IMG/VR virus record: IMGVR_UViG_3300033181_000002
Location: 1-58,552 of that record
DNA from: a virus
Taxonomy: Duplodnaviria; Caudoviricetes
DNA length: 58,552 bases
Reading direction: 5' to 3' (one strand)
The notes under the pieces are model-generated. The model worked only from the letters and a program-made list of their open reading frames with translations. It was not told the DNA's origin and ran no database searches. The position numbers were made by a program, and so were the translations under genes. Positions 11,085 through 35,348 of the stretch are shown piece by piece (the first letter of the stretch is position 1; each line of letters starts with the position of its first letter).

Positions 11085-11353
11085 GCGCCCGGCGGCACGA
11101 CCGCGCGACGGCCCTGGCGCCTAGCGGCGCGGGGCCTGAGACCCGGCTCGGGGAGCTGTTGCTCGGCTTGTTGGGGCGCGCCCTCGCGCTGCTGGTCCGG
11201 CCACTGCCGTGGTTCCTGGTCCCGCGCCCCGTCCGGCACCACCGGGCCATCGCGGCTGCGTGCGGCCCCGCCGACCGCCTGCGTGCCCTGCGCATCGCCT
11301 GGGGCGAGATCCGGGCGCGCTACCGCACGAAACACATGCCGGTGCCGGCATGA
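11081..11353 (+). CDS. Hypothetical protein
   Basis: GTGA/ATGA coupling at both ends. Confidence 0.45.
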   Translation: MSARRHDRATALAPSGAGPETRLGELLLGLLGRALALLVRPLPWFLVPRPVRHHRAIAAACGPADRLRALRIAWGEIRARYRTKHMPVPA

Positions 11354-11550
11354 CGGATCTCTTCGCCCCAATGCCGCCGGCGCCTCGCTCGACCGCCTCC
11401 TCGGCGGCCCTGCGGGCCTTCGATCCGCGCCACCACCGCTGCCACTGCGGCGCGTGGGGCAGCCGCTCGCCGAACCATTTCGCCGACAGGCCCGGGCAGT
11501 GGTTCTGCCGGGCGCATTATCCGGCCGAGCCGAACGAGGGGCGGCCGTGA
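11350..11550 (+). CDS. Small Zn-finger-like protein
   Basis: CHCGAWG...WFCRAH. Confidence 0.5.
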   Translation: MTDLFAPMPPAPRSTASSAALRAFDPRHHRCHCGAWGSRSPNHFADRPGQWFCRAHYPAEPNEGRP

Positions 11551-12725
11551 ACGCCCTCGCGATGCCGCTCCTCGCATCGATGGCGGCACAGGGCGGCCTG
11601 CCCGCCTACGAGGCGATGCGCCACGCCGTGGCTCGCTGCGCCACCATCGATGAGGCGGCGGAGATCCGGGACAAGGCCGCGGCGCTGGCCGCTTATGCGC
11701 GCCTGCGCGACGACGCCGAACTCGAAGTGTGGACGCAGGAGATCAAGCTCCGGGCCTGCAGGCGCATCGGCGAACTGGTCCGCGAGCTCGACAGCTTCGA
11801 GCGCACCAGGACCGATCTGCACGACAGTGCTGTCGTGCAGAAGACGGCGGCAATCGCGGACGCGCGGCTCAACCTCAGGACCGCGCAGCGCTACCAGGAG
11901 CTCGCCGGCCCCCGCGGGGACGATCTGCAGGCGGCCGGCTCGGCGGCGGCCGAGAGCTATTTCACGGACGCCCGCGCCGCGAAGATCCCGGCCACGCAGG
12001 CGGGCCTCAAGGCCGCCGTGACCACGGCCGTGCATGACGCCATGGGCCCGACCGAGATCCGCCGCGCCGCCAAGGATCTCGCGCGGGAGACCGCCTTCAT
12101 CAAGGCGGCGCGGCGGGACGAGCGGGAGGTGCGCCTCGGCGAGGCGACGCGCGTCGCCGGCGCGCGGCTCGGGTCGCGGCTCTATGGCGTGCTCTACGCC
12201 GATCCGCCGTGGCGGCGGGACGTCTATTCGCGGCAGACCGGGTTGGATCGGGCGGCCGAGAACCACTACCCGACCATGCCGACCGAGGACATCTGCGCGC
12301 TCGCGGTGCCGGCCGCGCCGGACTGCGCGCTGTTCCTGTGGGCGACGGCCTCGAAGCTGCTCGACGCCCTGCTGGTCGTGGAGACCTGGGGCTTCGCCTA
12401 CAAGACTCAGCTGATCTGGCGGAAGCCGCACCTGGGCACGGGCTACTGGGTCCGTGACATGCACGAGATCCTGCTGATCGGCACGCGCGGCGACGTGCCG
12501 GCGCCGACGCCCGGCACGCAGTTCCCCTCGGTGGTCGAGGCCCCGCGCGGCCGGCACAGCGAGAAGCCCGACGTCGTCGCCGAGATGATCGCCCGGATGT
12601 TCCCGACCGTGCCGAAGGCCGAGCTGTTCGCCCGGGCGCCGCGTCCCGGCTGGGACGTGTGGGGCAACGAGGCCGGGGACATCGCGGCGGGCGATTTCGC
12701 GGCGGATGGGAGTGCGGCCGCATGA
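11547..12725 (+). CDS. MT-A70 family adenine methyltransferase with N-terminal phage domain
   Basis: YADPPW, HYPTM, LFLWAT, HE.LLIG.RG, HSEKP and ELFAR...GWDVWGNE. Confidence 0.9.
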   Translation: MNALAMPLLASMAAQGGLPAYEAMRHAVARCATIDEAAEIRDKAAALAAYARLRDDAELEVWTQEIKLRACRRIGELVRELDSFERTRTDLHDSAVVQKTAAIADARLNLRTAQRYQELAGPRGDDLQAAGSAAAESYFTDARAAKIPATQAGLKAAVTTAVHDAMGPTEIRRAAKDLARETAFIKAARRDEREVRLGEATRVAGARLGSRLYGVLYADPPWRRDVYSRQTGLDRAAENHYPTMPTEDICALAVPAAPDCALFLWATASKLLDALLVVETWGFAYKTQLIWRKPHLGTGYWVRDMHEILLIGTRGDVPAPTPGTQFPSVVEAPRGRHSEKPDVVAEMIARMFPTVPKAELFARAPRPGWDVWGNEAGDIAAGDFAADGSAAA

Positions 12726-13051
12726 ACGCGAGGGTCGAGGACGTGATAACGGCCGAGCCGGTCGACGACGGCTGGGAGTGGATGATCGTCGAGGTGATGG
12801 GCCACCGCCGCCATGCCGGACGCTGCCGCGAGGAGGTGCGGTTCGGCGGGACGTTCCTGCGCATCGACGTGCCCAACAAGGGCGACCCCGACCAGCACGG
12901 CTGGACCAGCCACTATTACCCGCCGACGGCGCTGTTCGGCTTCGCGCCGGCCGAGCGGGACGTCTGTCTCGCGGCCAACAAGCCCTACGCGGGACCGTCG
13001 CGACTCGCGCTGCTCTACGACGAAAACGAGGCATACGATGAGCCGGTCTGA
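12722..13051 (+). CDS. Hypothetical phage protein
   Basis: WMIVEVMGHRRHAG...FLRIDVP; ATGA coupling. Confidence 0.65.
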   Translation: MNARVEDVITAEPVDDGWEWMIVEVMGHRRHAGRCREEVRFGGTFLRIDVPNKGDPDQHGWTSHYYPPTALFGFAPAERDVCLAANKPYAGPSRLALLYDENEAYDEPV

Positions 13052-13478
13052 CGCCGCGGCCGGCACCGCTTCCGATAACCCGGCTTCCCGGAAGCTATCC
13101 GCCCCGCTCGAGACGGCGCTCGCCGAGCTGATCGACGTCGCCCTGGAAGCCGTGGGCACGCACGATCCCCGTCTGGTGGACGCGCTCGACGGGGTCCGCG
13201 CGGCGGCCGCCCGCGAGCTGCTTCCAGCCGAGATGACGCCCGAGATCCGCGAGGTCCTCGGCCTCATGAACTTCCGCACCGGGCCGCTCGCCCACCTGTT
13301 CCGCGCCGCCGGCGCCGACATCCGGACGAAGTGCGAGGACGAGCAGGCCTTCGTCCTGTTCCGCTTCCTCCACCTCGCCCTGAAGCACGGCGCCGGGTGG
13401 CGCGAGGCATCGGTCACCGACGTTCAAGAAGCGCTCGCGGTCGCAAAGACTAAGCTGCCTGCGGAGTCCCAGTCATGA
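13038..13478 (+). CDS. Hypothetical protein (starts with the dyad-encoded ASDNPASRK)
   Basis: Coupled ORF carrying a dyad site at 13068. Confidence 0.6.
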   Translation: MSRSDAAAGTASDNPASRKLSAPLETALAELIDVALEAVGTHDPRLVDALDGVRAAAARELLPAEMTPEIREVLGLMNFRTGPLAHLFRAAGADIRTKCEDEQAFVLFRFLHLALKHGAGWREASVTDVQEALAVAKTKLPAESQS

Positions 13479-14178
13479 GCCGCGCGCTGAAACGCGTCCC
13501 ACTCGACTTCGCCCATCCCGTCGGCGAAGTCTGGTCCGGCTACGTCAACGACGTTGGACGCGCCTGCGAAGCCTGTGGTGGCGGGGGCGCCACGAAAGCC
13601 AGGACCGGCTGGCCGATCTCGTGTCGCTCATCCTGCTGTCGGGGGCGGATGCTGCGCGCGGACGCTGCCACCCCTACTTCCTGACCGTCTCCGTGCATCG
13701 CTCGCAGGGCGTGACGCCCTCGCCCGACATGATCGCGCTGACGACAGGCCTTGCCGGTCGAGGACCATCGTCCATGGGCCATGACAGTATCGACGGCCAT
13801 GTCGCGACGAGGAAGATCGTGGTGGCGGCCGGCCTGCCGGACACATGGGGCCAGTGTCCCGTTTGCGAGGGGAAGGGCCAGGACCCCGTCACTCAGGTGG
13901 CCTCCGATGCGTGGGCGCCGACGGAGCCGCCCACCGGCGACGGTTGGCAGATGTGGGAGACGACCTCCGAAGGCTCGCCGATATCGCCCGTCTTCGCCAC
14001 GCCGGAGGCGCTGGCCCGGTGGCTGGCCGACACCAACGCGAGCGCCTTGGGCAGCCGAGGCGCCTCCTACGACGCCTGGCTGAGCATGATCCTTGGTCCA
14101 GGTTCGGCGATGTCCGGCCTAATGGTCGACGGCAAGATGATCAGTGGTGTCGCAGCGGGAGTGCTCACCCGTGGCTGA
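13475..14178 (+). pseudogene. Frameshifted phage hypothetical protein
   Basis: N-terminus (KRVPLDF..P...VWSGY) in the 13475 frame; the rest (EPPTGDGWQMWETTSEGSPISPVF) in another frame; shift near 13600. Confidence 0.65.
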
Positions 14179-14992
14179 CGCGCTCGACCGGATCGCCTAC
14201 CCCAAGCGGCCGGCGCTGTGCGTCGAAGACGACGTCGTGGCCGTGCTGGCTCGCGCCGGGACGAACGGCGACACGCTCGTGTTGCCGGCCGAGCTCGAGC
14301 GCAGACTCTACGTCCGCGTCGACAAGGTGCTCGCCGCTGCCGGCGGCCACTGGAATCGATGGCGGGCCAAGCATGTTTTCGCCGGCGGCGACGCCGCGGC
14401 CGCGATCGAGCCGATACTGGTCACGGGTACGCTGGTGCTGCCGCCCGACCTCGGTTGGTTCGCGACGCCGCCCGGGCTCGCGGCCGAGCTGGTGCGCCGC
14501 AGCGGCGCTCGCCCGGGTTCGCGCCTGCTGGAGCCGTCGGCCGGGGAGGGCGCCATCGTGCTGGCCGCCCTGGCGGCCGGTGCACGGGTCGCGGCGATGG
14601 AGATCGACCCGCTCCGCTTCGCGACCTTGTTCACATTGGCTGACGATCCCACGCGGCTTCTCTGCCAAGCCGGCGACTTTCTGGCGCAAAACCTCCTGCC
14701 CAACTTCGACCAGGTCGTGATGAACCCGCCGTTCGCGCCACGTCGGACGGACGTCTTCCACGTCCGCCACGCCCTAGGATCGCTGCGCCCGGGTGGCCGG
14801 CTCGTCGCCGTGATGAGCGCCGGCACATTGTTCCGCGCCGATCGGGAGACGGACGCCTTCCGCGACCTCGTCTGCGGCCTGGGCGGCACGATCGAGCCGC
14901 TGCCCGACGACAGCTTCGCGGCCTCCGGCACGCATGTCCGGACCGTGGTGGTGACAGTCGACAAGCCGCGCCCGGGCAGGGGGTTTGCGTGA
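14171..14992 (+). CDS. SAM-dependent (N6-adenine-type) DNA methyltransferase
   Basis: LEPSAGEGAI, VVMNPPF and GGRLVAVM motifs. Confidence 0.85.
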   Translation: MADALDRIAYPKRPALCVEDDVVAVLARAGTNGDTLVLPAELERRLYVRVDKVLAAAGGHWNRWRAKHVFAGGDAAAAIEPILVTGTLVLPPDLGWFATPPGLAAELVRRSGARPGSRLLEPSAGEGAIVLAALAAGARVAAMEIDPLRFATLFTLADDPTRLLCQAGDFLAQNLLPNFDQVVMNPPFAPRRTDVFHVRHALGSLRPGGRLVAVMSAGTLFRADRETDAFRDLVCGLGGTIEPLPDDSFAASGTHVRTVVVTVDKPRPGRGFA

Positions 14993-15909
14993 TGGCCGTG
15001 CCGCGCCTCGACGCTCAACCGCGCCGCCCGGCCGTCCGATGGCACGGCGGCAAGTGGCGGCTCGCGCCCTGGATCATCGAGCATTTCCCGCCACACCTCG
15101 CCTACGTCGAGCCGTTCGGCGGTGGTGCGTCGGTGCTGCTGCGCAAGCCCGTGAGCTATTCCGAGGTTTACAACGACCTCGACGACGACGTCGTGGGGCT
15201 GTTCCGGGTGCTGCAGGAGCCGATGCAGGCCGCGCGGCTGCGCGCGCTGCTTGACCTGACGCCCTACGCTCGGCGCGAGCTCGAGATGGCCTACGAGCCG
15301 ACGGTCGACCCAGTCGAGCGGGCGCGGCGCCTCGTCATCCGCGGCGCCATGGGCTTCGGTTCGAACGCGCACGTCTCCATCGATCGCGGACACAAGACGA
15401 CGGGGTTCCGCGTCACGGCCCACCGCGCCCGGAACACGACGCCGGCGACCGACTGGGCGAACTACCCGGCCGCGCTCGACGCCGTGGTGGCGCGTTTCCG
15501 GGGCGTCGTGGTCGAGCACCGCGACGCGGCCGAGGTCATGGTCCAGCACGACGCGCCCGAGACGCTGTTCTACCTGGATCCGCCCTACCAGCACGAGCTG
15601 CGGTCGCTCGGGAACCGCTACGATTTGCAGCTCCGCTTCTACCGGCACGAGATGGATACGGCGGCTCACGCCGCGCTGCTCGCCTTCGTCCTCACCCTTC
15701 GGGGCATGGTCCTGATCTCGGGCTACCCGAGCCCGCTCTACAACGAGGGCCTGCCTGGGTGGCGCCGGGTCGAGACGGCAGCCCGGATCGATGGAGGCGG
15801 CCACCGCACCGAAGCCCTCTGGATCAACCCCGCTGCGGTGGCGGCCATGGAAGGCGCGCTGCAATGCCTCAAGACCCTGCCCCTGTTTGCCGAAGGGAGG
15901 CCGCTTTGA
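14989..15909 (+). CDS. Dam/D12-class DNA adenine methyltransferase
   Basis: GGKWRLA, YVEPFGGGASV, YND and FYLDPPY motifs. Confidence 0.92.
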   Translation: MMAVPRLDAQPRRPAVRWHGGKWRLAPWIIEHFPPHLAYVEPFGGGASVLLRKPVSYSEVYNDLDDDVVGLFRVLQEPMQAARLRALLDLTPYARRELEMAYEPTVDPVERARRLVIRGAMGFGSNAHVSIDRGHKTTGFRVTAHRARNTTPATDWANYPAALDAVVARFRGVVVEHRDAAEVMVQHDAPETLFYLDPPYQHELRSLGNRYDLQLRFYRHEMDTAAHAALLAFVLTLRGMVLISGYPSPLYNEGLPGWRRVETAARIDGGGHRTEALWINPAAVAAMEGALQCLKTLPLFAEGRPL

Positions 15910-16217
15910 GCGCTTCCGATAAACTCCCTTCCCGGAAGCAACCCGGCAATCCGGACTGCCTGCATTGCAGGTTGGTCGAAACGATCTACGCGCATTTCGA
16001 CGCGAAGGGAGCCGTGGCGGACGGCGAAACAGTGCTGGACATGCAGGAAGTCGCGGAGAGCGTCGGCCAGGTCCTGGCCGAGTTCTTCGCCGGCCATGAC
16101 GACAAGAAACAGCGCGATCGGCGGCTGAAGGAGCTGTTCCACGCTGTGCGCGACGAGATCCCCGTGATCCGCGGACGCGGCGACGGCGCCTTCCCCCGAC
16201 ACGTGGAGCTGCACTGA
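15906..16217 (+). CDS. Hypothetical protein
   Basis: TTG start overlapping the Dam stop; dyad site at its 5' end. Confidence 0.55.
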   Translation: MSASDKLPSRKQPGNPDCLHCRLVETIYAHFDAKGAVADGETVLDMQEVAESVGQVLAEFFAGHDDKKQRDRRLKELFHAVRDEIPVIRGRGDGAFPRHVELH

Positions 16218-16642
16218 TGGCTTACTCTCAGGCGTCTTCCCGGAAGCGTCAGCAGGTCGGGCACCCGGTCACCCCCGGCGGTCTGTCCGAGCAAGACCAC
16301 GACCGCATCCACGCGCTCGCCGACCGGGGCTGGTCCTGCTCTCGGATCGCCTGCGCGATCACGAAGCATCCGGGGACGGTCTACTGGTTCATGTGCCGCG
16401 AAGGCCTGATCGCGCCGAAGCAGACCGACACTCCAAAGGTCTACAGCCGGGGCGGCCGCGTCGTCCGGCGCTTCGGCCGCGAGGAGGACGCCTTCATCGT
16501 GGCGCTGCGCGTGCAGGGCTACGGACCGACTGCGATCACCGATCTCGCGGCGAAGCGCTTCGGCTTCGCCCGGCCGCTTCACAGCGTCGTCTGTCGGCTT
16601 GTCATGCTGGCCGGCCTCGAGAGCCGTGAGGAGGCCGCATGA
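16217..16642 (+). CDS. HTH-containing hypothetical protein
   Basis: Two GWS..RIA / GYG...I HTH-like segments. Confidence 0.6.
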   Translation: MAYSQASSRKRQQVGHPVTPGGLSEQDHDRIHALADRGWSCSRIACAITKHPGTVYWFMCREGLIAPKQTDTPKVYSRGGRVVRRFGREEDAFIVALRVQGYGPTAITDLAAKRFGFARPLHSVVCRLVMLAGLESREEAA

Positions 16643-17520
16643 CCACCGATAAATCGTCTTCCCGAAAGCAGATCGGTTCGGTGTCAGCCGGTCTGCGCCC
16701 CGTCGCGCCCGTGCCGGCCCTCAACGTCAGGCCGAACGAGCTGGGCGGCCCGCCGCCCGAGGTGCGGTGGGTCGCACCGGGGTCGCTGCTGATCGAAGGC
16801 AGCTACCAGCGCGATCTCAGCCAGAAGAGCATGACGCTCCTGCGCAAGATTGTCGGCGGTTGGGACTGGGCCGCCATGAAGCCGCCGATCTGCGCCATCA
16901 CGGACGGGGGCGACCTCGTCGTCATCGACGGCCAGCACACGGCCATTGCGGCGGCGACCCACCCGGCAATCGGGGAGATCCCGATTCTGATCGTTCAGGC
17001 AACGGCCGTGCGCGACAGGGCGGGCGCCTTCGTCAAACACAACGCCGACCGCATCGCGATGACCTCAATGCAGGTGCATCACGCTGCCCTGGCGGCTGGC
17101 GACGAGGTCGCGGTGGCGATGGCTGAGGCCGCCCGGCGCGCGGGAGCCACCATCCTGCGCAACACGCCGCCACAGGGGCTCTACGCCGTCGGAGACACGT
17201 CCGCGGTGGCCACCCTCCGCAAGATGACGAACGAGAAGGGGCTAGTCTTCGCCGCGCGGGTGCTCCGCATCCTGGTCGGCGCGATGCGGGCGCCGCTCGT
17301 CACCGCCGAGATCAAGGCTGTCCGCGCGTTGCTGAGCGAACCCGAGTGGCGCGGTTCGATCGCCGACGAGGATCTCACCCTCCTGATCCGATCGAAGAGC
17401 ATGTCGGACTGGGAGGCTTTCGCAGAGAGCCGAGTCCGCAAGGGCCTGAAGATTCCCCTGGCCCGCGCGCTGGCGATCGCGTGGTTCCAGAACGCGCCCA
17501 AGCGGCGGAGGGCGGCATGA
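16639..17520 (+). CDS. ParB/Srx-like domain protein (DUF6551-like)
   Basis: YQR.LS, VIDGQHTAIAA and A.AFV.HN motifs. Confidence 0.75.
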   Translation: MTTDKSSSRKQIGSVSAGLRPVAPVPALNVRPNELGGPPPEVRWVAPGSLLIEGSYQRDLSQKSMTLLRKIVGGWDWAAMKPPICAITDGGDLVVIDGQHTAIAAATHPAIGEIPILIVQATAVRDRAGAFVKHNADRIAMTSMQVHHAALAAGDEVAVAMAEAARRAGATILRNTPPQGLYAVGDTSAVATLRKMTNEKGLVFAARVLRILVGAMRAPLVTAEIKAVRALLSEPEWRGSIADEDLTLLIRSKSMSDWEAFAESRVRKGLKIPLARALAIAWFQNAPKRRRAA

Positions 17521-17921
17521 CCCGCGAGGAACTCAAGCTGTCCATCCTGGACCGGGAAAACGCCGAGCTGCGGGAGCGCGTCGCCTACCTCGAGCGATGC
17601 CTGTGCGAGCCGGATGCGCGTTACGACCTGCTGGGCCTGACCGCGTCCGAGGCGCGCGTGTTCGGCTCCCTGGTCAAAAGAACGATGCTCAGCAAGGAGC
17701 AGATCGGCGCGGTTCTCTACGCCGACCGAAAGGATCGAGAGCTGCCCGATCTCAAGATCGTGGACGTCTACGTCTGCAAGATCCGCGCGAAGCTCGAGCG
17801 GTTCGGCATCCGCATCGAGACGGTCTGGGGCCATGGCTATGAGGTCAGGCCGGAGATGAAGACGCTCGTCTTCCAAGTGCTCGGCCAGTTCAGCCGATCG
17901 GCGAAGGAGATTGCGGCATGA
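17517..17921 (+). CDS. OmpR/CtrA-type winged-helix DNA-binding protein lacking a receiver domain
   Basis: LT..E, SKE, PDLKIVDVYVCKIRAKL and IETVWGHGY resemble the CtrA C-terminal domain. Confidence 0.8.
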   Translation: MTREELKLSILDRENAELRERVAYLERCLCEPDARYDLLGLTASEARVFGSLVKRTMLSKEQIGAVLYADRKDRELPDLKIVDVYVCKIRAKLERFGIRIETVWGHGYEVRPEMKTLVFQVLGQFSRSAKEIAA

Positions 17922-18355
17922 CCACCGATAAGCTTGCTTCTCGGAACGAAAGTCCGTCGCTGGACGCCGAACCCGTCCTCTCGTCCGGCAGGGTGCAGCT
18001 TCTCCTCGGCGACTGCCTGTCCAGGCCGGAGGAGGGCGGGGCGGTCGTCGTCGAGGGCGTGCGATGCGACTACGCCTTCGACAGGGCGAAACTCGACGAG
18101 CGCCGAACTGAGCTCCTCGCCATGCTGGCCGAGCTGCCGGATCAGTTCGCGACATCGTCCGGAGGCGGGTGGACGTTCCTGAATCTGTGCGTCGACCGCC
18201 ACGGACGCCAGTGGACCGACCTCCACCAGGTACAGGAGTGGCTCTGCTGCCTCGCGATCGGCGCCGGTGTCGGCCGATGGGTCCTCCCCCGACACATGTG
18301 GGAGGCCCTGCCGGGAGGGATGCCATACGTCCAGTTCGAGGGAGCCTCGGCGTGA
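17918..18355 (+). CDS. Hypothetical phage protein
   Basis: GGGWTFLNLC.D..G.QW...LPGGMPY; coupled ORF. Confidence 0.65.
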   Translation: MTTDKLASRNESPSLDAEPVLSSGRVQLLLGDCLSRPEEGGAVVVEGVRCDYAFDRAKLDERRTELLAMLAELPDQFATSSGGGWTFLNLCVDRHGRQWTDLHQVQEWLCCLAIGAGVGRWVLPRHMWEALPGGMPYVQFEGASA

Positions 18356-18871
18356 CGGCCCGCAAGCTGCGCGCCCTGACGCTCTGGCAGCCGTGGGCGA
18401 CCCTGGTCGTCGCCGGCGTCAAGCCGTTCGAGTTCCGGCGCTGGCCGGCGCCGTCGTGGATCGCAGAGGATCGCGATCCACGCCGGCGCCCGGCCGATGA
18501 AGCGGCGCGAGCTCGACGAGCTGATCGGCGCGTTGCGCATCGAGGAGGGCTGGGGCACGGCGCTGGATCCGGTGCCGGCCCTCGCGATCCTGCTGCGCAT
18601 CCAGGAGCGGCCCGAGCTGCTGCCGACCTCGGCCGTGCTGGGCACCGCGGTGATCGGCCGGCCCGTGCCGGCCGCCGAGGCCGTCGCGTCGGCCTATGGC
18701 GAGGCCTTTCGGGGCGACTCCGACCGCATCGACCACGCGGTGTTCGGCTGGCCGCTGACCGACATCCTCCGTTTCGAGCCGCCGATCGCGGCCAGGGGCG
18801 CCCAGGGCTTCTGGTGGTGGTCGACGAGCCAGGGCGACGTGCCGATCGATGAGACGAGGGAGGCAGCATGA
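18352..18871 (+). pseudogene. ASCH-domain protein, frameshifted
   Basis: ALTLWQPWATLV..G.K..E.R.W in one frame; RIAIHAG...ARGAQGFW in another; shift near 18465. Confidence 0.75.
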
Positions 18872-19428
18872 CGCTGGATCACGCTCAACCCCGAGCGGAT
18901 GTCGTGTACGAGGAGGCTTGCCCGTTCGACGATATCCTGGCTCGCACGCCCTACCTGGTCCTGCCCAAGCTCGCCATTCAGGCGATGAGGGCGCCCTGGC
19001 GGAAGCGCTTGGCGGCGCTGCTCGACGAGGCGGCAGCAGCCGGCCTCGAGACGCCGAGCTATCTCGTGTTCCGCGACGACCCGGCCTTCACCCATTGCAC
19101 CTTCTACGTCGACACGCCTGACGAAGTCTGTGGCGCGGAGATCGTCGTGGCCGATCCCTGGGCCGACTACCGCCATGGCGCGCTCACCAAAGTTCGGGCG
19201 CTCTGTCCGAACTTTCAGCCGCCGGAGCCGCCGCGGCCGACCCCTGACGAGATGCGGCCCGGCCTCGACGCCGCCGTGAGTCTCCTGCGGAGGACCGCCG
19301 ACGCCAAGGAGACGTCGGGCAGGGGCGTCTTGGGCGGCATGTTCGCCGATCAGGCTGCGACAGACCTTCGGCAAGCCGCCGACCGCGTCGACGTCCTCGA
19401 TCGCGCCTCGGAAGGACAGGGGCGATGA
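18868..19428 (+). CDS. Hypothetical protein
   Basis: ATGA coupling with a ribosome-binding site. Confidence 0.6.
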   Translation: MTLDHAQPRADVVYEEACPFDDILARTPYLVLPKLAIQAMRAPWRKRLAALLDEAAAAGLETPSYLVFRDDPAFTHCTFYVDTPDEVCGAEIVVADPWADYRHGALTKVRALCPNFQPPEPPRPTPDEMRPGLDAAVSLLRRTADAKETSGRGVLGGMFADQAATDLRQAADRVDVLDRASEGQGR

Positions 19429-19459
19429 CCGCTTTCGATCAACTGTCGGAGACTTCCCG

Positions 19460-19783
19460 ATGCGATTACTTGCCACGATGGCCGTTGCTGCCGCCCTCGT
19501 CCTGCCCTCTGCAGTCCGGGCCCATGACACCTGGGCCAACGGCGACCCGGTCCCCGCCTGGGTCAAGGCGGAATGCTGCTCGCAGGCGCATGCGCACCAT
19601 GTCGACGACAGCGCCGTGCATGCCGGGCCGGACGGCTATCGCGTCGACGGCTACCAGTGGACGATCCCGTACAGTCGGGCCCTTCCATCACCTGACGGGT
19701 CGACCTGGCTGTTCTACGCCACCGACCAGGATGGCACCCAGCACACTCCTTATTGCTTCTTCGTCGGCCCGAAGGGCTCGTGA
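19460..19783 (+). CDS. Putative secreted small Cys-containing protein
   Basis: Signal peptide MRLLATMAVAAALVLPSAVRA-H; ECC, PSPDG and YCFF motifs. Confidence 0.7.
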   Translation: MRLLATMAVAAALVLPSAVRAHDTWANGDPVPAWVKAECCSQAHAHHVDDSAVHAGPDGYRVDGYQWTIPYSRALPSPDGSTWLFYATDQDGTQHTPYCFFVGPKGS

Positions 19784-19819
19784 GATGCGCGGCCGGATCA
19801 CGGTCGGGGAGCGGGGGAC

Positions 19820-20332
19820 ATGACCCAAAAGAAACACAGGGCTCCGCCGCCCTGGGGCGACATCGAGGACGCCCCCAAAGACGCGACCGTCGTGGATCTG
19901 TGGATTCCTGGCGACGACTCACCGGGATATCGTCGCGTCGACCTCCATTGGGGAATGCCCGTCGATTCCTCGCGCGATGAGGAAGCGGGCTGGCTCAACG
20001 ACATGGAACAACTCGCGCTCGAGGAGGGCGAGTATCCTTCGATGTGGGTGCATGCGCCGCCGGATCCTGAGGCGGGTGTGCCGGCCATGAATCGATCGAC
20101 AGGCAGCGAGGGAGTAGGCGGACGACACAAGGCCGACTCCCTGGCCGCAGCCCTGCCGCGAGAGATGACGCGAGTCCGCGGGCTTATTCCCCTCTTCGAC
20201 GCTATTCCGACCGGCTTCTTCGCAGCTGGCATGATGAGGCAGTCGCTCGGTGCTGCCCAGCATGCGCTCGCTGAAGGTAACGTGATCGCGATGTTGCGCT
20301 CCTACGAGGATCTTAAGGGATACTCGGCATGA
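19820..20332 (+). CDS. Hypothetical protein (possibly two fused modules)
   Basis: W..IE.APKD N-terminus; internal ATG near 20088. Confidence 0.55.
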   Translation: MTQKKHRAPPPWGDIEDAPKDATVVDLWIPGDDSPGYRRVDLHWGMPVDSSRDEEAGWLNDMEQLALEEGEYPSMWVHAPPDPEAGVPAMNRSTGSEGVGGRHKADSLAAALPREMTRVRGLIPLFDAIPTGFFAAGMMRQSLGAAQHALAEGNVIAMLRSYEDLKGYSA

Positions 20333-20829
20333 ACACTTCCGATCAGAGTTCTTCCCGGAACCAACCCGAACAGCGCCTCTACATCCCGGCCGCATACGTC
20401 GACGAGGTCTGTCCACCAGGCCGCGTCAACCCCGACGCCTGGATCGGCACGCCGGCCGGCGACGTGTGGCTGCTCGCGACCGAGGAGGATATCGACTTCG
20501 GCCTGACGATCACACCGAGCGAGACTATCGAGTTCGGCTGGGTCGAGCGCCTCGGCGCGGTCGAGGTCGAGATAAGGGATGACGGCACGCATGCCGCCCG
20601 GGGGCTCGTGCCGGACGGCGTCACCCATTTCACCTTCGGCATGGATGTGCTGGCCGACACGCTCGATGAATTCGTGCGGGAATGGCTCTCCCTCGGCATG
20701 GACGTCGACGATGACCGGCTGGTTCTCGTCGAGATGGCGCGGTGGTCGCCGGAGCACGAACCTTTCCGTTTCGAGGTCGCCGAAGGCGGTCCGCGGTTCG
20801 TGCCTGTCGGGACGGGAGCATCGGAATGA
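20329..20829 (+). CDS. Acidic hypothetical protein
   Basis: Coupled ORF bounded by dyad sites at 20335 and 20832. Confidence 0.6.
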   Translation: MNTSDQSSSRNQPEQRLYIPAAYVDEVCPPGRVNPDAWIGTPAGDVWLLATEEDIDFGLTITPSETIEFGWVERLGAVEVEIRDDGTHAARGLVPDGVTHFTFGMDVLADTLDEFVREWLSLGMDVDDDRLVLVEMARWSPEHEPFRFEVAEGGPRFVPVGTGASE

Positions 20830-21170
20830 CCGCTTCCGATAAGTCCCCTTCCCGGAAGGAAAGCCGGGATGAGCCCATGCCCGAGCATCCCACCAGCGCT
20901 GAGATCGAACGCTGCAAGGCTGCTATGAGCAAGCCCGGACCACTTTCGGCTCTTCAGTTGATCGCTTCCGGTCGCGCGGTGGTTGAAGTCACAGACAGGG
21001 AAGTGCTGATCGACACGTTCGACGGTCGGACGGTGCGCGACGAGGACCACCCAAATTGCAAGATGGTGCTCGCCGGCTCTTGGCCACTTCTCCGCGCCAG
21101 AATGATCGACCGCTACGGCCTGGTCACGCCCGCGGGCCATGCCGTGCTGGCGGGGGCCGCTCATGGCTAA
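20826..21170 (+). CDS. Hypothetical protein
   Basis: Coupled ORF with a dyad site at its 5' end. Confidence 0.55.
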   Translation: MTASDKSPSRKESRDEPMPEHPTSAEIERCKAAMSKPGPLSALQLIASGRAVVEVTDREVLIDTFDGRTVRDEDHPNCKMVLAGSWPLLRARMIDRYGLVTPAGHAVLAGAAHG

Positions 21171-22706: not shown

Positions 22707-23530
22707 CCAGCTACGCCGCAGCCTTCATGCTCAACGAGGGCCTTCACCGGCTCGGCAAGCCGGCGCAGAAGCACGCCACGGTGCGGACGTTCTCCGTGCC
22801 GCTGATCGAGTTCGTTCGGCCGGACGGCTACTGGCCGCAGCCGTTCACGATCGAGCAGGCGTTCGAGGTCTTCCGCTGGATGGTTACCGGGGCCGCGCTG
22901 CACTCGGAACCCAGCTATTGGGGGCGGATGGCGGCGATCGATTTGCTCTCGGCGACGTCCGGCGAGGGCCACGACCACGTCATACCGGTGCGAGGCATCC
23001 AGGACCTGCGATCGCGCTTCCACTACGGCATCCTCGGCCGACTCAGCGCCAAGTCGCAGCTCGCGTGGCGGAAGGCGCTGGGGATCGACGTGGCGGCCAC
23101 CGTGCAGATCCGAGCTCGCGTCCACAAGCCCTTCGCCGGGGCGCCTCATCTCGGTTTCCGCAGCGAGGGCCACATCCGCGAAACCATCGAACGCATCACC
23201 ACCGGATCGGTGGGTGCCACGATGGCCTGGTCGCTGAACTCGTCGCACAGAGGTTGCCGAACGCTGCATCACGTTCGGATCGCCGTGGGGGCCGAGGGCT
23301 TCGCATTCCACCTCTCCTATGGAGACCCTCTCGACACGAGCTATTCGCAGTGGACCGAAAGGATTGCGGCGACTCGTGACCGCGAGACCTTCCTCGAGAC
23401 GCTGGCCCGTGCCCGGGACGCCTTCGACATGCTGGTGCACGGCACCGGAACGAGCGACCTCGCCGACATGAGCGACTTCACGCGCCGGAGCGCCATCCCT
23501 TGCCCTCACGCTCGGAGGATCGCCGCATGA
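22703..23530 (+). CDS. Hypothetical protein
   Basis: Coupled ORF ending in RRIAA with an ATGA overlap. Confidence 0.6.
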   Translation: MTSYAAAFMLNEGLHRLGKPAQKHATVRTFSVPLIEFVRPDGYWPQPFTIEQAFEVFRWMVTGAALHSEPSYWGRMAAIDLLSATSGEGHDHVIPVRGIQDLRSRFHYGILGRLSAKSQLAWRKALGIDVAATVQIRARVHKPFAGAPHLGFRSEGHIRETIERITTGSVGATMAWSLNSSHRGCRTLHHVRIAVGAEGFAFHLSYGDPLDTSYSQWTERIAATRDRETFLETLARARDAFDMLVHGTGTSDLADMSDFTRRSAIPCPHARRIAA

Positions 23531-25500
23531 TCCGCCAGGAGATCCGGCATTTCCACGTCTGCGGCGGCTCCGGCGGCGGCAAGATGGGGTTCAACCGCGG
23601 CGAGGCGCGGGTCGGCGCCGCCACGGCCGTGCCGCGCTGCATCGGCGGGGTCGACGTGGACCTCGCCGGTATGGCCGACTTCAACCGCATCCCCGGCGCA
23701 CCGGCGACGCCGCTCGACCTGTTCACCCGCGAGCAGTTCGCGGCCTTCCACGGCGGCCTGCCGCCCGCGGGCTGGCGCGAGGCCGTGCCCGACGACTTCC
23801 GCCGCGCCGCCGGCGGCGAGCGGCCGCACGTCGTCTTCATGTCGACGCCCTGCAAGGGCTTTTCCGGCCTGCTCTCGGAAAAGCAGAGCGGCTCGACCAA
23901 ATACCAGGCGCTCAACGGCCTGACGCTGCGGGCCGTGTGGCTGACGCTCGAGGCCTGGTCCGACGACCCGCCCGAGTTCATCCTGTTCGAGAACGTGCCG
24001 CGCATCGCCACGCGTGGCCGCTGGCTGCTCGACCAGATTCGCGCGCTCCTCGACGCCTACGGCTACCTGTCGGCCGAGACCACGCACGACTGCGGCGAGA
24101 TCGGGCACCTCGCCCAATCCCGGCGGCGGTTCCTGCTGGTCGGCCGACATCCCGCCAAGGTGCCGCCGCACCTCTTCGAGCCCGAGAAGAAGCGGCTGCG
24201 CGGCGTCGGCGAGGTGCTGGACCGCCTGCCGCTCCCCGGCGACCTCTCGGTCGGCCCTCTGCATCGCATGCCGAGCCTGCAGTGGAAGACCTGGGTGCGG
24301 CTGGCCTTTGTCGAGGCGGGGTCGGACTGGCGCTCGCTGAACCGGCTCCGCGTCGAGGACGGCATGCTGGCCGACTTCGCGATCGCGCCCGACGCCGGCT
24401 GGCACAGTGGAGTGCTCGGCGTGAGGCGATGGGACGAAGCGGTCGGGACCGTTGCGGCACGTAACTCGCCCGGCAACGGCGCTTTCTCGGTCGCCGACCC
24501 GCGGCCGGGCTACGGGCACGAATATGGGCAACTCGGCGTCGGCCGCTGGGACGAGCCGGCGTCGACCGTCATCAACGTCAAGTCGCCCGGCCAGGGCAGA
24601 TTCGCGGTCGCGGACCCCCGGCCGGCCTTCGGCCGAAGCACTCACCACAACATCTACCGGATCGTGCACTGGGGCGAGCACGCCCGCACGGTGACGGGCG
24701 GCACCCATCCTGCCGGCGGAGGGAGCTGCGTGGCCGACCCCCGCACCACCGCGGGCTTCGGTGGCAAGGGCAAGTATCGCGTCACGGCCTACGGCGAGGC
24801 AGCCGGGACCGTCATCGGGGCCAGCACGACAGGGCAGGGGGCCTTCGCGGTCGCGGACCCGCGCATGACGTGGGCCGCGACCGCGCATCGCAACAAGCTC
24901 AAGGTGGTGCCCTACGCGGGTGCGGCCGGCACCGTGACGGGGGCCGACAGGGTCGGATCGGGTGCGCTGTGCGTCGCCGATCCGCGGCCCGACTTCGCCC
25001 GGGACGGCCGCGACGCCTTTCAGACGGGCGGCCATTACGGCGTGCTGCCCTACGACGCCCCGAGCGGCGCCGTCACAGGCTCGGGCCAGCACGACAACGG
25101 CCGCTGGTCCGTGGCCGATCCGCGGTCCGTGGAGGGCGGAGAGGCTGAGGCGCTGCCGGGGGCCGCGCTGCCGGCAGCCGACACGAAGCTGGTCGCGGTC
25201 ATCCGCGCGCTCGACGGAACTTGGCATCGCCCCTTCACAACCTACGAGCTGGCGGCCCTGCAGGGCTACGTCGACCCCGACGACGGCCCGCTTGTGATGG
25301 AGGGCACGTCCGACAGCGCCTGGCGCGAGCGGATCGGTAACATGGTGCCGCCGCCCTCCGCGGCCGCAATCATGTCGGTGATCGCCCGCACGCTGCTGCT
25401 CGCATGGTCGGGCGAGACCTTCGTGCTGTCGTCCGAGCCGATCTGGGTCCGCGACGTCGCGCTGGCGGCCTCGCTCGACCTGCCGCCGGTGCTGGAGTGA
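23527..25500 (+). CDS. C5-cytosine DNA methyltransferase with repeated VADPR modules
   Basis: Catalytic PC (STPCKGFS), ENVP, Q.RRRF, ELAALQG and IGN.VPP motifs. Confidence 0.9.
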   Translation: MIRQEIRHFHVCGGSGGGKMGFNRGEARVGAATAVPRCIGGVDVDLAGMADFNRIPGAPATPLDLFTREQFAAFHGGLPPAGWREAVPDDFRRAAGGERPHVVFMSTPCKGFSGLLSEKQSGSTKYQALNGLTLRAVWLTLEAWSDDPPEFILFENVPRIATRGRWLLDQIRALLDAYGYLSAETTHDCGEIGHLAQSRRRFLLVGRHPAKVPPHLFEPEKKRLRGVGEVLDRLPLPGDLSVGPLHRMPSLQWKTWVRLAFVEAGSDWRSLNRLRVEDGMLADFAIAPDAGWHSGVLGVRRWDEAVGTVAARNSPGNGAFSVADPRPGYGHEYGQLGVGRWDEPASTVINVKSPGQGRFAVADPRPAFGRSTHHNIYRIVHWGEHARTVTGGTHPAGGGSCVADPRTTAGFGGKGKYRVTAYGEAAGTVIGASTTGQGAFAVADPRMTWAATAHRNKLKVVPYAGAAGTVTGADRVGSGALCVADPRPDFARDGRDAFQTGGHYGVLPYDAPSGAVTGSGQHDNGRWSVADPRSVEGGEAEALPGAALPAADTKLVAVIRALDGTWHRPFTTYELAALQGYVDPDDGPLVMEGTSDSAWRERIGNMVPPPSAAAIMSVIARTLLLAWSGETFVLSSEPIWVRDVALAASLDLPPVLE

Positions 25501-27601: not shown

Positions 27602-27678
<77 letters not shown>

Positions 27679-27838
27679 GCTTTGCCCGAGCGGGCATCAT
27701 GTGTGCAGACAGCGCGGTCGCCGTACCAAGCACTTGTGTGGGTGAATGCGACTCGGTAGCCCGTCTCCGCTGAGACGAACGGTTAAACGGGCAGGACAGG
27801 GCGTCACGGTTCAGACCGTGGCGCCCTTCTTCGTTTTT

Positions 27839-27866
27839 TCTTCCGGGAAGGCGCGTTATCGGAAGC
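27839..27866 (-). repeat. 28-bp dyad site (minus orientation)
   Basis: Reverse complement GCTTCCGATAA-CGCGCC-TTCCCGGAAGA. Confidence 0.9.
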
Positions 27867-27911
27867 GACCGCTCTAAGTAACGCGCGGAGATTATTGCAG
27901 TGGCGAGCGGC

Positions 27912-28127
27912 ATGCGATGGAAAGGGGAGCTCATCCCCTCGCTGACCGATGCAAACCTGTTCGAGGTTTTGGTCTTCGCGCGGTCGCCACTCGCCAGGGT
28001 CCTCGCTCCGAGCGAAGATGCGCGGCAGGCAGGCCTTGAAGAGATCCTGTCGGAGATCGATCGACGCGCCGCCGAGAAATACCGCGACCCCCGAGCGTCC
28101 AGGTTACGGAGTCCCGCCGCGGCGTGA
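27912..28127 (+). CDS. Small hypothetical protein
   Basis: 71-aa ORF after the dyad site. Confidence 0.4.
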   Translation: MRWKGELIPSLTDANLFEVLVFARSPLARVLAPSEDARQAGLEEILSEIDRRAAEKYRDPRASRLRSPAAA

Positions 28128-32311: not shown

Positions 32312-33226
32312 TTGACGGATGTACTCAAGTCAGCGGTCGATTATGCCAGGGCGGAGACGTCCGAGGCCACCCGCCGCGCCTACGCCAGCGACTGGCGGGC
32401 CTTCGAGGCCTGGTGCGCCTCGGTGGCGCAGCAACCGCTGCCGGCCTCCACGGCCGCCGTGGCGGGCTACCTGGCCCATTTGGCCGACAGCGGCCTCAAG
32501 GCATCGACCATCAACCGCCGTGCCTCCGCCATCACCTACCGGCACCGTCTGGCCAACCTGACGCCGCCGACCGGCGCCGAGAGCGTCAAGGCCGTGCAGC
32601 GCGGCATCCGCCGCACCATCGGCACCCGAGTCGACCGCAAGGCGCCCGCGACCGCCAAGGCCATCAAGGCCATGGTGGCGGCCATCCCCGACACGCTGGG
32701 CGGCCGGCGCGACCGCGCGCTGCTGCTGATCGGCTTCGCGGCCGCGCTGCGGCGCTCCGAGCTCGTGGCGCTCGACGTCGAGGACCTCGAGCGCACGCCG
32801 GACGGCCTCTTCGTCCACATCCGGCGCTCGAAGACCGACCAGGAGGGCGCCGGCCACGTCGTGGCGGTGCCGCGCGGCGGCAGGCTGCGGCCGGTCCACG
32901 CCGTCGAGGACTGGCTCGAGGCCGCCGGCATGACGACCGGCGCATTGTTCCGATCGATCGCCAAGGGCGGGGTGCTGATCGGCGAGCGGCTGAGCGACCG
33001 CTCCGTCGCCGACATCGTCAAGCGCTGGGCCGCCGCCGCGAAGCTCGATCCGACGCTGTTCGCGGGGCACTCGCTGCGGGCGGGCTTCGTGACCTCGGCG
33101 CTCGAGGCCGGCGCCGACCCGCTGAAGGTGATGGACGTCACCCGGCACAGTCAGGTGCAGACCCTCAAGGGCTACGACCGCCGCGCCAAGGCCTTCAAGG
33201 ACCACGCCGGCAAGGGATTCCTGTGA
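32312..33226 (+). CDS. Second tyrosine recombinase (Cre/XerC/TnpS-like); natural start may be ATG 32272, which is out of frame
   Basis: N-terminal T.RAY..DW..F..WC; RDRALLL.GF..ALRRSEL, RSKTDQ.G.G, GHSLRAGFVT, TRH and catalytic Tyr (LKGY). Confidence 0.92.
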   Translation: MTDVLKSAVDYARAETSEATRRAYASDWRAFEAWCASVAQQPLPASTAAVAGYLAHLADSGLKASTINRRASAITYRHRLANLTPPTGAESVKAVQRGIRRTIGTRVDRKAPATAKAIKAMVAAIPDTLGGRRDRALLLIGFAAALRRSELVALDVEDLERTPDGLFVHIRRSKTDQEGAGHVVAVPRGGRLRPVHAVEDWLEAAGMTTGALFRSIAKGGVLIGERLSDRSVADIVKRWAAAAKLDPTLFAGHSLRAGFVTSALEAGADPLKVMDVTRHSQVQTLKGYDRRAKAFKDHAGKGFL

Positions 33227-35320: not shown

Positions 35321-35348
35321 GCTTCCGAGAAGGACAGTTATCGGAAGC
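35321..35348 (-). repeat. 28-bp dyad site (minus orientation)
   Basis: Reverse complement GCTTCCGATAA-CTGTCC-TTCTCGGAAGC. Confidence 0.9.

What the first reader, a model, noticed from the sequence alone, without database searches (positions are those of the whole stretch)
13068..20859. Integron-like cassette array: recombinase-type 11-6-11 sites placed in frame right after start codons
Seen in sequence: GCTTCCGATAA-N6-TTCCCGGAAGC-like sites at 13068, 15912, 16220, 16642, 17921, 19431, 20335 and 20832, all in one orientation. Each begins 3, 6 or 30 nt after a start codon and in the same frame, so unrelated ORFs begin with (A/T)SD(K/N/Q)xxSR(K/N). The arms are imperfect inverted repeats (GCTTCCGATAA versus GCTTCCGGGAA). 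The 6-bp spacers all differ but all end in C. Established: 11-6-11 geometry with inner TAA/TT ends is that of dif/Xer-type tyrosine recombinase core sites. Inference: recombination between sites would add, delete or reorder gene cassettes while keeping translation, because the upstream module donates the stop-coupled start codon. Variable spacers with one fixed base suggest a homology-relaxed exchange. I do not know of a described phage system with this layout.
Basis: partly seen in the sequence, partly recalled or inferred. Interest (0 to 1): 0.88.

Follow-up and report, generated by a model that had tools for sequence, protein, structure and literature searches.

The report
Lox-like crossover sites at gene starts
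A temperate phage from a rock community carries nine copies of the likely target site of its own Cre-like recombinase, seven of them built in frame into the first codons of accessory genes, and related phages differ exactly at these sites, so they look like built-in joints for swapping genes between phages.

Summary
19431 is at most a relic. Two more sites lie outside the range on the minus strand, at 27839 and 35321. Chance expects 0.

Each array site starts 3, 6 or 30 nt after a start codon, in one frame. The constraint is on DNA, not on the peptide.

The same 28-bp site family lies 1-700 bp upstream of homologs of the window's recombinase (32312-33226) in 46 of the 57 fetched loci that hold such a homolog. 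That recombinase is most like Cre of phage P1 and keeps the catalytic residues. It fails the XerC, XerD and integron-integrase models.

In a relative, G001, seven sites keep the same 6-bp spacer (one differs by one base) in the same order, while the flanking genes are unrelated. A third relative breaks homology exactly at site edges.

Best reading: heterospecific lox-like sites that act as position-labelled crossover points for cassette exchange between phages. No recombination was shown. The main rival is a regulatory binding site, after MrpR/SPBRE.

This scan reported the same system earlier on other DNA (e1-5346319).

The parts
13068..13095 (+). Site A, spacer CCCGGC, 30 nt after the ATG of ORF 13038-13478
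   Evidence: 0 mismatches to the consensus. The ortholog in G001 has the same spacer. A contig of run X4 ends its match exactly at 13095.
15912..15939 (+). Site B, spacer ACTCCC, 6 nt after the TTG start of ORF 15906-16217 (TTGA overlap with the stop of the Dam-like gene)
   Evidence: 0 mismatches. Against G001 the site is 26/28 identical while the flanks are 22/60 and 17/60.
16220..16247 (+). Site C, a half-site: degenerate left arm, perfect right arm, 3 nt after the ATG of ORF 16217-16642 (HTH protein)
   Evidence: The G001 homolog of this gene (71% identical) starts without any site.
16642..16669 (+). Site D, spacer ATCGTC, 3 nt after the ATG of the ParB-like ORF 16639-17520
   Evidence: Exact core match. 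The left flank and left arm are homologous to G001's site at 14224, while spacer, right arm and right flank differ.
17921..17948 (+). Site E, spacer GCTTGC, 3 nt after the ATG of ORF 17918-18355
   Evidence: Exact core match. G001 site 14224 has the same spacer: 25/28 in the site against 25/60 and 16/60 in the flanks.
19431..19458 (+). Not a functional site; possibly a decayed relic (left-arm-like only)
   Evidence: PWM score below threshold. The ORF from 19425 is not coding by GC position; the coding ORF starts at 19460.
20335..20362 (+). Site F, spacer GAGTTC, 6 nt after the ATG of ORF 20329-20829
   Evidence: 3 mismatches. G001 site 14829 has the same spacer with unrelated flanks. The X4 contig match starts exactly at 20335.
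20832..20859 (+). Site G, spacer GTCCCC, 6 nt after the ATG of ORF 20826-21170
   Evidence: 1 mismatch. 28/28 identical to G001 site 15727, with flanks at 31/60 and 19/60. The X4 contig match ends at 20857.
27839..27866 (-). Site H, spacer CGCGCC, intergenic, just past a strong + strand terminator-like hairpin (27798-27827)
   Evidence: G001 site 23588 is 27/28 identical with flanks at 15/60 and 18/60. The X4 record 29 match starts at 27840.
35321..35348 (-). Site I, spacer CTGTCC, intergenic between the N6_N4 methylase gene and the genes leading to the terminase. Probably the primary site of the recombinase module.
   Evidence: The order recombinase, site, terminase and portal homologs recurs in G001 and in G006 contig C37; G006 contig C167 has the same order with only the recombinase's C-terminal end at the contig edge, and the L381 prophage has the site on the far side of the recombinase. 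Against G001 the right flank is 54/60 and the left flank 19/60.
32312..33226 (+). Cre-like tyrosine recombinase (304 aa, TTG start), the candidate enzyme for the sites
   Evidence: Pfam Phage_integrase plus SAM-like N-terminal domain. Best PDB match is Cre, E 5e-16, over residues 4-290, with the R, K, H, R, H and Y equivalents present. 94% identical in G001.
13038..21170 (+). Early accessory operon with 7 site-headed ORFs (13038-13478, 15906-16217, 16217-16642, 16639-17520, 17918-18355, 20329-20829, 20826-21170), interspersed with ORFs that have no site
   Evidence: Third-codon-position GC content (GC3) of 0.72-0.87 and low second-position GC (GC2) in all seven. No + strand terminator-like hairpin between 9500 and 27797.

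Best explanation
The 28-bp elements are lox-type core sites: two inverted 11-bp arms around a 6-bp asymmetric spacer. They are most likely the targets of the phage's own Cre-like tyrosine recombinase (32312-33226).

The ancestral module of this recombinase family is one site next to the gene. It often sits near a ParA gene, so it probably resolves multimers. In this phage lineage the site has multiplied to nine copies, each with its own spacer.

Inferred mechanism. Tyrosine recombinases of this kind need matching spacers. The nine sites would therefore be inert towards each other inside one genome. Each could still recombine with the same-numbered site of a related phage that shares the cell. 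One exchange swaps everything on one side of a site, and two exchanges swap the block between two sites.

Seven sites lie in frame just behind stop-coupled start codons. A junction there would join the upstream ribosome-binding site and start codon to a new gene body through a short, tolerated N-terminal peptide, (A/T)(S/T)D(K/N/Q)xxSR(K/N). The operon would then stay translated after every swap.

Shown: the sites, their link with the recombinase family, and their coincidence with mosaic junctions.
Inferred: that the recombinase catalyses the exchange, and that the spacers act as addresses.
For: 1. The sites are far beyond chance: 8 exact core matches against 0.00 expected.

2. The constraint is on DNA. 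In the 13 array sites of the window and G001, Asp is GAT in 12 of 12 cases although GAT makes up 14% of Asp codons. The sixth codon is NCT in 13 of 13, although GCT and TCT, the two such codons checked, are 1-4% of their families (CCT was not checked). Two window sites and most sites elsewhere are intergenic.

3. Link to the recombinase by neighbourhood. 57 of 250 fetched loci with a site hold a tblastn homolog (E<1e-5). In 46 of those 57 the site lies 1-700 bp upstream in the same orientation.

4. Link to the recombinase by co-occurrence. In 301 genomes of one family, sites occur in 10, close homologs (E<=1e-50) in 16, and both in 6, always 24 bp to 3.3 kb apart. Fisher p = 1.5e-6. In 79 loci (1.28 Mb) of other phages with the MT-A70 methylase gene there are 0 sites and 0 homologs.

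5. The outer arm bases change together on both arms across genomes, as expected for a homodimer-type site.

6. The enzyme looks active. Its best solved relative is Cre (E 5e-16) and all catalytic equivalents are present. Jelicic et al. 2023 (PMC10250229, passages read) found cognate sites of Cre-type enzymes as palindromes within 1 kb of the gene, with about 50% validated.

7. Junctions against G001. G001 has 8 sites. Seven share position order, and 6 of those 7 have an identical spacer; I differs by one base. Sites B, E, F, G and H are islands of 25-28/28 identity between flanks of 15-31/60. The proteins behind B, E, F and G are unrelated beyond the first 11-17 residues.

8. Junctions against a third relative. 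In run X4, matches end or start at 13095, 20335, 20857 and 27840, which are site edges. One of these lies 58 nt inside an ORF.

9. Spacers are very diverse elsewhere: 191 different among 230 sites. The shared spacers are therefore shared by descent.

10. The tag is dispensable. Gene C has it in the window and lacks it in G001.
Against: 1. No recombination event, binding or activity was observed.

2. Many other mosaic breakpoints between the window and G001 fall at plain gene boundaries without a site: 12728, 13035, 13480, 21141, 22706 and 27155. Part of the coincidence with sites could therefore reflect their position at gene starts.

3. General recombination at 28-bp identical islands would give the same pattern, spacer matching included.

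4. Alignments cannot place the crossover inside the site.

5. A pure exchange role does not by itself explain why the sites sit within 3-6 nt of start codons, nor why all seven share one orientation.

6. 193 of the 250 site-bearing loci show no recombinase homolog in the stretch fetched (median length 7.4 kb).

7. In the window itself no site lies next to the recombinase gene; the nearest is 2.1 kb away and inverted.

8. Three array sites (C, D, E) have degenerate left arms and may bind poorly.
Confidence: 0.55

Rival explanations
1. Regulatory binding sites. The recombinase, or another phage protein, binds the sites to repress or block expression of the early accessory operon gene by gene. 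This would resemble MrpR/SPBRE of phage SPbeta or the stoperators of cluster A mycobacteriophages. The mosaic junctions would then arise secondarily, by general recombination at these conserved 28-mers.
For: Published precedent: MrpR has a tyrosine-recombinase fold closest to Cre, binds the dispersed SPBRE repeats and acts as master repressor (PMC10516654, abstract and passages read). This reading directly explains the position within 3-6 nt of start codons and the single orientation with transcription. It also explains why sites are kept while flanks change. Site H lies at a transcription-unit boundary, just past a terminator-like hairpin.
Against: MrpR has lost 4 of the 7 catalytic residues, whereas this protein keeps the R, K, H, R, H and Y equivalents. 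Its relatives sit in site-plus-gene modules, 11 of 37 with a ParA gene nearby, which is typical of working resolution systems. Sites inside coding DNA are an unusual place for operators. No binding data exist either way.
Confidence: 0.22
2. Functional N-terminal peptide tag. The shared (A/T)(S/T)D(K/N/Q)xxSR(K/N) peptide would target the proteins to the capsid, to a protease or to a partner, as I recall the capsid targeting sequence doing at the head of T4 internal proteins.
For: 7 of 7 array sites are in one of the two open frames and right behind the start codon. Homologs of ORF 20329-20829 at 96% and 66% identity also begin with the tag.
Against: Rare codons are fixed: GAT in 12 of 12, NCT in 13 of 13. 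Strong copies are intergenic, and nearly all copies in other genomes are non-coding; only 7 of 192 look start-associated, and 2 of those are G001's own. Gene C exists with and without the tag.
Confidence: 0.04
3. An mRNA hairpin at the start of each cistron that enforces translational coupling or binds a translational regulator.
For: The arms can pair. Sites A, B, G and I fold at -9.4 to -11.5 kcal/mol; A, B and I have z of -2.3 to -4.1, and G has z -1.5. The starts overlap upstream stops.
Against: 3 of the 7 array sites have no stable stem: C has z +0.2, D folds at -0.7 kcal/mol, F has z -0.2. There are no compensating changes in D or E. H and I lie opposite to the + strand genes around them.
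Confidence: 0.04
4. Host-driven system. The sites would be dif-like targets of the host XerC/XerD, as in pdif modules of Acinetobacter plasmids or Xer-exploiting elements, or attC-like sites of an integron.
Against: The two arms are near-identical inverted repeats, not distinct XerC and XerD arms. The site occurs in only 10 of 301 genomes of the likely host family, so it is not their dif. Its presence tracks a Cre-like gene. The XerC, XerD and IntI models are far below their cut-offs.
Confidence: 0.05

Closest known systems
Cre/loxP of phage P1 and other Cre-type recombinase systems (Vika/vox, Dre/rox, the YR series; PMC10250229 passages read, PMC3553980 listing only)
   Same: The recombinase is most similar to Cre over its full length and has the catalytic residues. 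The target is two inverted arms around an asymmetric spacer. In relatives the site lies next to the gene. In this phage group one site lies between the recombinase block and the terminase genes. P1's loxP near pac is my recollection, not a call.
   Different: The geometry is 11-6-11, not 13-8-13. There are nine sites per genome, each with its own spacer. Seven are embedded in frame in gene starts. Identity to Cre is low, so the enzyme is a family relative, not an ortholog.
Engineered heterospecific lox/FRT sites: recombinase-mediated cassette exchange and SCRaMbLE in synthetic yeast (recalled; only the abstract start of PMC11260471 on spacer specificity was seen)
   Same: Several sites share arms but have different spacers. 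They do not cross-react, and they allow ordered exchange of the DNA between matching pairs. Sites are placed at a fixed offset from gene ends.
   Different: Those are laboratory designs. Here the arrangement is natural, and the exchange would be between co-resident phages. Activity and spacer dependence are untested.
dif (pdif) modules on Acinetobacter plasmids (abstract starts seen in the listing: PMC6449649, PMC13141974, PMC7399989)
   Same: Many 28-bp 11-6-11 sites bound discrete accessory-gene modules that are found shuffled among related replicons.
   Different: pdif sites use host XerC/XerD with two unlike arms and, as I recall, alternate in orientation and lie between genes. Here the enzyme is a phage-encoded Cre-like protein, the arms are alike, the array sites are all direct, and they lie inside coding starts.
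Integrons (IntI, attI, attC). PMC9892861 reports integron parts in phages (abstract start only).
   Same: An array of mostly single-gene units in one orientation, each tied to a recombination site, with a tyrosine recombinase encoded nearby.
   Different: The IntI model is not met (20.1 bits against 265). The sites are short double-strand lox-type sites, not folded attC sites. No attI or Pc layout was looked for or seen. The units are translationally fused, not merely promoterless.
MrpR/SPBRE of Bacillus phage SPbeta (PMC10516654, abstract and passages read)
   Same: A protein with a Cre-like fold and a repeated element dispersed through the phage genome.
   Different: MrpR lacks catalytic residues and is the master repressor, and SPBRE lies in intergenic regions. 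Here the catalytic set is intact and most sites are inside ORF starts.

Membership tests
Cre-type tyrosine site-specific recombinase systems | Tyrosine recombinase with the catalytic R, K, H, R, H/W and Y residues and two-domain Cre-like architecture | tested here: met
   phmmer against PDB: best hits are all Cre or a Cre-derived variant (Tre), E 5e-16, query residues 4-290 against Cre 23-326. The equivalents of R173, K201, H289, R292, W315 (here H) and Y324 are aligned and present. Pfam Phage_integrase plus SAM-like N-terminal domain.
Cre-type tyrosine site-specific recombinase systems | Cognate target made of two inverted arms around an asymmetric spacer, found close to the recombinase gene | tested here: met
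   In 46 of 57 loci with a homolog the site is 1-700 bp upstream in the same orientation. The arms are inverted repeats whose outer bases co-vary. In the window the nearest site is 2.1 kb downstream. Geometry is 11-6-11 rather than 13-8-13.
Cre-type tyrosine site-specific recombinase systems | The enzyme recombines two copies of the site, and needs matching spacers | not testable with these tools
   Needs an excision or inversion reporter or an in vitro assay.
Xer/dif, including pdif modules | The recombinase is XerC or XerD | tested here: not met
   NCBIfam XerC 69.4 bits against cut-off 335.15; XerD 62.9 against 329.6.
Xer/dif, including pdif modules | The site is the chromosomal dif, or a copy of it, of the host group | tested here: not met
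   Site with up to 3 mismatches found in 10 of 301 genomes of the family of G008, and there next to Cre-like genes. The true host is not known, so this is a proxy.
Xer/dif, including pdif modules | Two different arms, one for XerC and one for XerD | tested here: not met
   The arms are near-identical inverted repeats: CTTCCGATAA against the complement of the right arm, CTTCCGAGAA or CTTCCGGGAA.
Integron | Integron integrase IntI | tested here: not met
   TIGR02249 scores 20.1 bits against cut-off 265.
Integron | attC sites: longer imperfect palindromes recombined as folded single strands (definition recalled) | tested here: not met
   The sites are 28 bp. 3 of the 7 array sites do not fold stably.
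MrpR/SPBRE-type recombinase-fold repressors | Loss of the catalytic residues | tested here: not met
   MrpR keeps 3 of 7 (PMC10516654, Table 3 passage). The window protein keeps R, K, H, R, H and Y.
MrpR/SPBRE-type recombinase-fold repressors | Binding to the dispersed repeats represses transcription | not testable with these tools
   Needs ChIP or reporter assays.

The most novel reading that the evidence does not exclude
A natural version of recombinase-mediated cassette exchange. The phage lineage keeps a set of lox-like sites whose spacers serve as position labels. A dedicated Cre-like enzyme can then swap accessory-gene blocks between related phages in register, without scrambling either genome. 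Because the sites are written into the first codons of the genes, every swap yields a translated fusion. Part of phage mosaicism would then be an encoded, enzyme-driven process, not only the residue of rare illegitimate recombination.
Probability: 0.45. Interest if true: 0.9.

Novelty: new variant of a known kind. Interest (0 to 1): 0.78.

Why it matters
How phage genomes become mosaics at gene boundaries is a long-standing question. The usual answers are random illegitimate recombination followed by selection, or general recombination at short shared sequences.

Here the shared sequences are recognisable targets of an enzyme that the phage itself encodes. Each has its own spacer, and relatives keep those spacers in order while the genes between them change. 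That turns the question into a direct experiment: test same-spacer against different-spacer site pairs, with and without the recombinase.

If the reading holds, there are two consequences. It would show a built-in diversification device for accessory, probably anti-defence and host-takeover, genes. It would also supply a ready-made family of mutually inert lox-like sites with an 11-6-11 layout for genome engineering.

If it fails, the likely alternative is still of interest: a catalytically intact Cre-like protein used as a gene-by-gene regulator.

Tried and rejected
Peptide tag: rejected as the main constraint on codon evidence and because of the non-coding copies.

RNA hairpin: rejected, because 3 of the 7 array sites do not fold.

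Host dif or integron: rejected on the model scores and on the site's distribution.

ParB-like protein and CtrA-like winged-helix protein as the site binders: G001 has 8 sites but no tblastn hit for either protein. Neither can be the factor common to both phages. A role in this phage alone is not excluded.

More relatives:
- megablast of the array against the phage collection found nothing.
- Protein-based locus searches with ORF 13038-13478, the MT-A70 gene and ORF 20329-20829 found only G001 as a close relative. More distant ones have no sites.
- The metagenome contig JAABUM010000440.1 shows, over the three stretches fetched, the same sites and flanks as G001, so it is probably the same phage and was not counted as independent.

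Sequencing runs: no RNA holder was listed. All runs laid were contigs, so starts, ends and rare joints cannot be judged. The listed joints have short sides (20-26 letters), none lies at a site, and I treat them as noise. No cover-based claim is made.

Crossover position: the arms differ too little between relatives to decide whether they co-segregate with the flanks.

Literature: searches for a described phage system of lox-like sites at gene starts found none. A search for the left-arm motif string returned only unrelated papers. Supplementary files of the papers were closed and were not seen. They could hold target-site tables for Cre-type enzymes (PMC10250229) that bear on whether an 11-6-11 family is already listed.

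The PWM was built from the nine sites themselves, so it only shows that no further strong copies exist.

Full report
**What the window is.** It is a 58.5-kb, 69% G+C viral record, classed as linear and about 80% complete.
- A tRNA-Gly gene (44-117) lies next to ORF 191-1414 on the minus strand. I take that ORF for the integrase from its position only; it had no NCBIfam hit.
- A long + strand accessory operon follows, with five DNA methylase genes, a ParB-like gene and a CtrA-like winged-helix gene.
- A second tyrosine recombinase lies at 32312-33226.
- After that come genes whose homologs lie beside terminase and portal homologs in related prophages.
- Runs that hold the sequence are rock metagenomes.

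**The observation.**
- The consensus with up to 3 mismatches hits six places, against 0.00 expected.
- A degenerate core hits eight places exactly, again against 0.00.
- A ninth copy at 16220 keeps only the right arm.
- The listed site at 19431 is not a site. It has a left-arm-like stretch only, and the ORF that would carry it is not coding by GC position.
- The seven + strand copies begin 3, 6 or 30 nt after a start codon in one frame. Six of those starts overlap the upstream stop.
- All seven ORFs look coding: third-codon-position GC content (GC3) is 0.72-0.87.
- No + strand terminator-like hairpin occurs between 9500 and 27797. A strong one at 27798-27827 sits just before site H.

**DNA, RNA or peptide?**
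- The constraint is on DNA. In the 13 array sites of the window and its relative G001, Asp is GAT in 12 of 12 cases, although GAT is 14% of Asp codons in the window's genes. The sixth codon is GCT, CCT or TCT in 13 of 13; GCT and TCT are 1-4% of their families, and CCT was not checked.
- A common RNA hairpin is unlikely. Sites C, D and F do not fold better than shuffles, and D folds at -0.7 kcal/mol.
- Gene C (16217-16642) carries the site in the window, while its 71%-identical homolog in G001 starts without it. The peptide is therefore dispensable for that protein.
- Homologs of ORF 20329-20829 at 96% and 66% identity do keep a tag. This fits both readings.

**Whose site is it?** Pattern scans of viral, genome and metagenome collections returned 250 loci with a site.
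- Only one window protein recurs near these sites: the recombinase 32312-33226.
- 57 of the 250 loci hold a homolog. In 46 of those 57 the site lies 1-700 bp upstream of the gene in a fixed orientation. A few rows are the same contig fetched twice. 193 loci show no homolog in the stretch held (median 7.4 kb).
- The only other recurrent neighbour is a ParA-like ATPase, in 11 of 37 module loci. That points to plasmid-type multimer-resolution modules.
- Across genomes the two outermost arm bases change together on both arms (AC..GT, GT..AC, TA..TA, AG..CT).
- In 301 genomes of the family of G008, sites occur in 10, close homologs in 16 and both in 6. The two are always 24 bp to 3.3 kb apart, and Fisher p = 1.5e-6. 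At least two of the four site-only genomes have doubtful matches.
- 79 loci (1.28 Mb) of other phages that carry the MT-A70 methylase gene have neither a site nor a homolog.
- By sequence the protein is closest to Cre of P1 among solved structures (E 5e-16, nearly full length), and all catalytic equivalents are present.
- It is far below the XerC, XerD, XerS and integron-integrase cut-offs.
- Jelicic et al. (PMC10250229, passages read) located cognate sites of Cre-type enzymes as palindromes within 1 kb of the gene and validated about half. My inference uses the same logic.

**Junctions against G001.** The close relative G001 (64.6 kb) has eight sites: six + strand sites at gene starts and two minus-strand intergenic ones.
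- Its recombinase is 94% identical to the window's.
- Seven sites correspond in order and orientation to window sites A, B, E, F, G, H and I. Six have identical 6-bp spacers, and I differs by one base.
- Elsewhere spacers are almost all different: 191 kinds among 230 sites.
- Around B, E, F, G and H the 28 bp are 25-28/28 identical, while both 60-nt flanks are at background level, 15-31/60.
- The proteins behind B, E, F and G are unrelated beyond the first 11-17 residues.
- At A and I one flank is homologous (54/60) and the other is not.
- At D the left flank and left arm match G001's E site, while spacer, right arm and right flank differ.
- Between sites the content differs in size and number of genes. 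E to F is 2414 bp with five ORFs in the window and 605 bp with one ORF in G001.

**Junctions against a third relative.** In run X4, one 3.9-kb contig matches the window up to 13095, the last base of site A and 58 nt inside the ORF. It then has 1.6 kb of other DNA, and then matches 20335-20857, from the first base of site F into site G, with 10 differences in 523 bases. Another contig starts its match at 27840, the edge of site H.

**Limits.**
- Other breakpoints between the window and G001 fall at ordinary gene boundaries without a site. Part of the coincidence is therefore expected from the sites' position at gene starts. The islands with both flanks replaced, and the break 58 nt inside an ORF, are not explained that way.
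- General recombination at 28-bp identities would leave the same traces.
- I saw no joint between two sites of one genome. This fits sites that do not cross-react, but contigs cannot show rare forms.
- The in-frame arrays are confined to this lineage. Among 192 other sites only 7 look start-associated, 2 of them G001's own.
- Arrays of intergenic sites of the same family do exist elsewhere. G290 has nine sites, four of them direct within 4.5 kb around single genes.

**Reading.**
- Most likely (0.55): a Cre-type recombinase whose single resolution site has been multiplied into a set of heterospecific sites. These would act as position-labelled crossover points between related phages. The in-frame placement behind coupled start codons would make every junction a translated fusion.
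- Main rival (0.22): a regulatory role, for which MrpR/SPBRE of SPbeta is a published precedent (PMC10516654). That protein, however, has lost its catalytic residues.
- The two readings are not exclusive.

**Earlier notes of this scan.** After I had formed this reading I found e1-5346319, on a relative genome, with the same conclusion. Several notes describe analogous sites in SPbeta-like phages. They are not independent evidence. The SPbeta notes led me to search for, and read, the MrpR paper.

Noticed in passing
window 11283-12725, 14144-14992, 14989-15909, 23500-25500, 34507-35289: Five DNA methyltransferase genes in one phage: MT-A70, an N6_Mtase-like gene just under the Pfam cut-off, D12/Dam-like, C5, and N6_N4. 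This points to heavy investment in anti-restriction.
   Followed up: partly
window 17517-17921: A 134-aa protein whose C-terminal part matches the DNA-binding domain of the cell-cycle regulator CtrA (NCBIfam CtrA model, E 9e-10, profile positions 162-222 only) and has no receiver domain. It has no tblastn hit in G001.
   Followed up: partly
window 44-117, 27602-27678, 31275-31350: tRNA-Gly lies at the left end, next to ORF 191-1414 (-), and is the likely attachment site. tRNA-Met (+) and tRNA-Trp (-) lie inside the phage.
   Followed up: no
window 27839-35348: Sites H and I are direct repeats of each other with different spacers. They bracket a 7.5-kb block that holds the recombinase. In G001 the matching block is about 6 kb and lacks window 29349-31426.
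   Followed up: partly
G290:C1:3343954-3343981 and 3399441-3399468: Two sites with identical spacer and near-identical right flanks lie 55 kb apart in direct orientation in a bacterial chromosome. They could be the two ends of an element integrated by this kind of recombinase.
   Followed up: no
L180:1229-1256 and 3203-3230: Two identical sites with identical flanks lie in inverted orientation 2 kb apart on a metagenome contig. This may be an invertible segment.
   Followed up: no
G271:C227:2184-2211: A site variant in which both arms carry the matching change (CTTGCG ... CGCAAG). It is another case of the two arms changing together.
   Followed up: no
L070, L080, L083, L086, L087, L097, L117 and others (Rubrobacteraceae): A GTTTCCGATAA-N6-TTCTCGGAAAC variant recurs in many Rubrobacteraceae genomes, often with the same spacer GTACAA. 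No recombinase homolog at E<1e-5 lies in the stretches held. Its role is unexplained.
   Followed up: no
window 32272-32312: The recombinase ORF from TTG 32312 (304 aa) aligns with homologs from residue 1-5 onward.
   Followed up: partly
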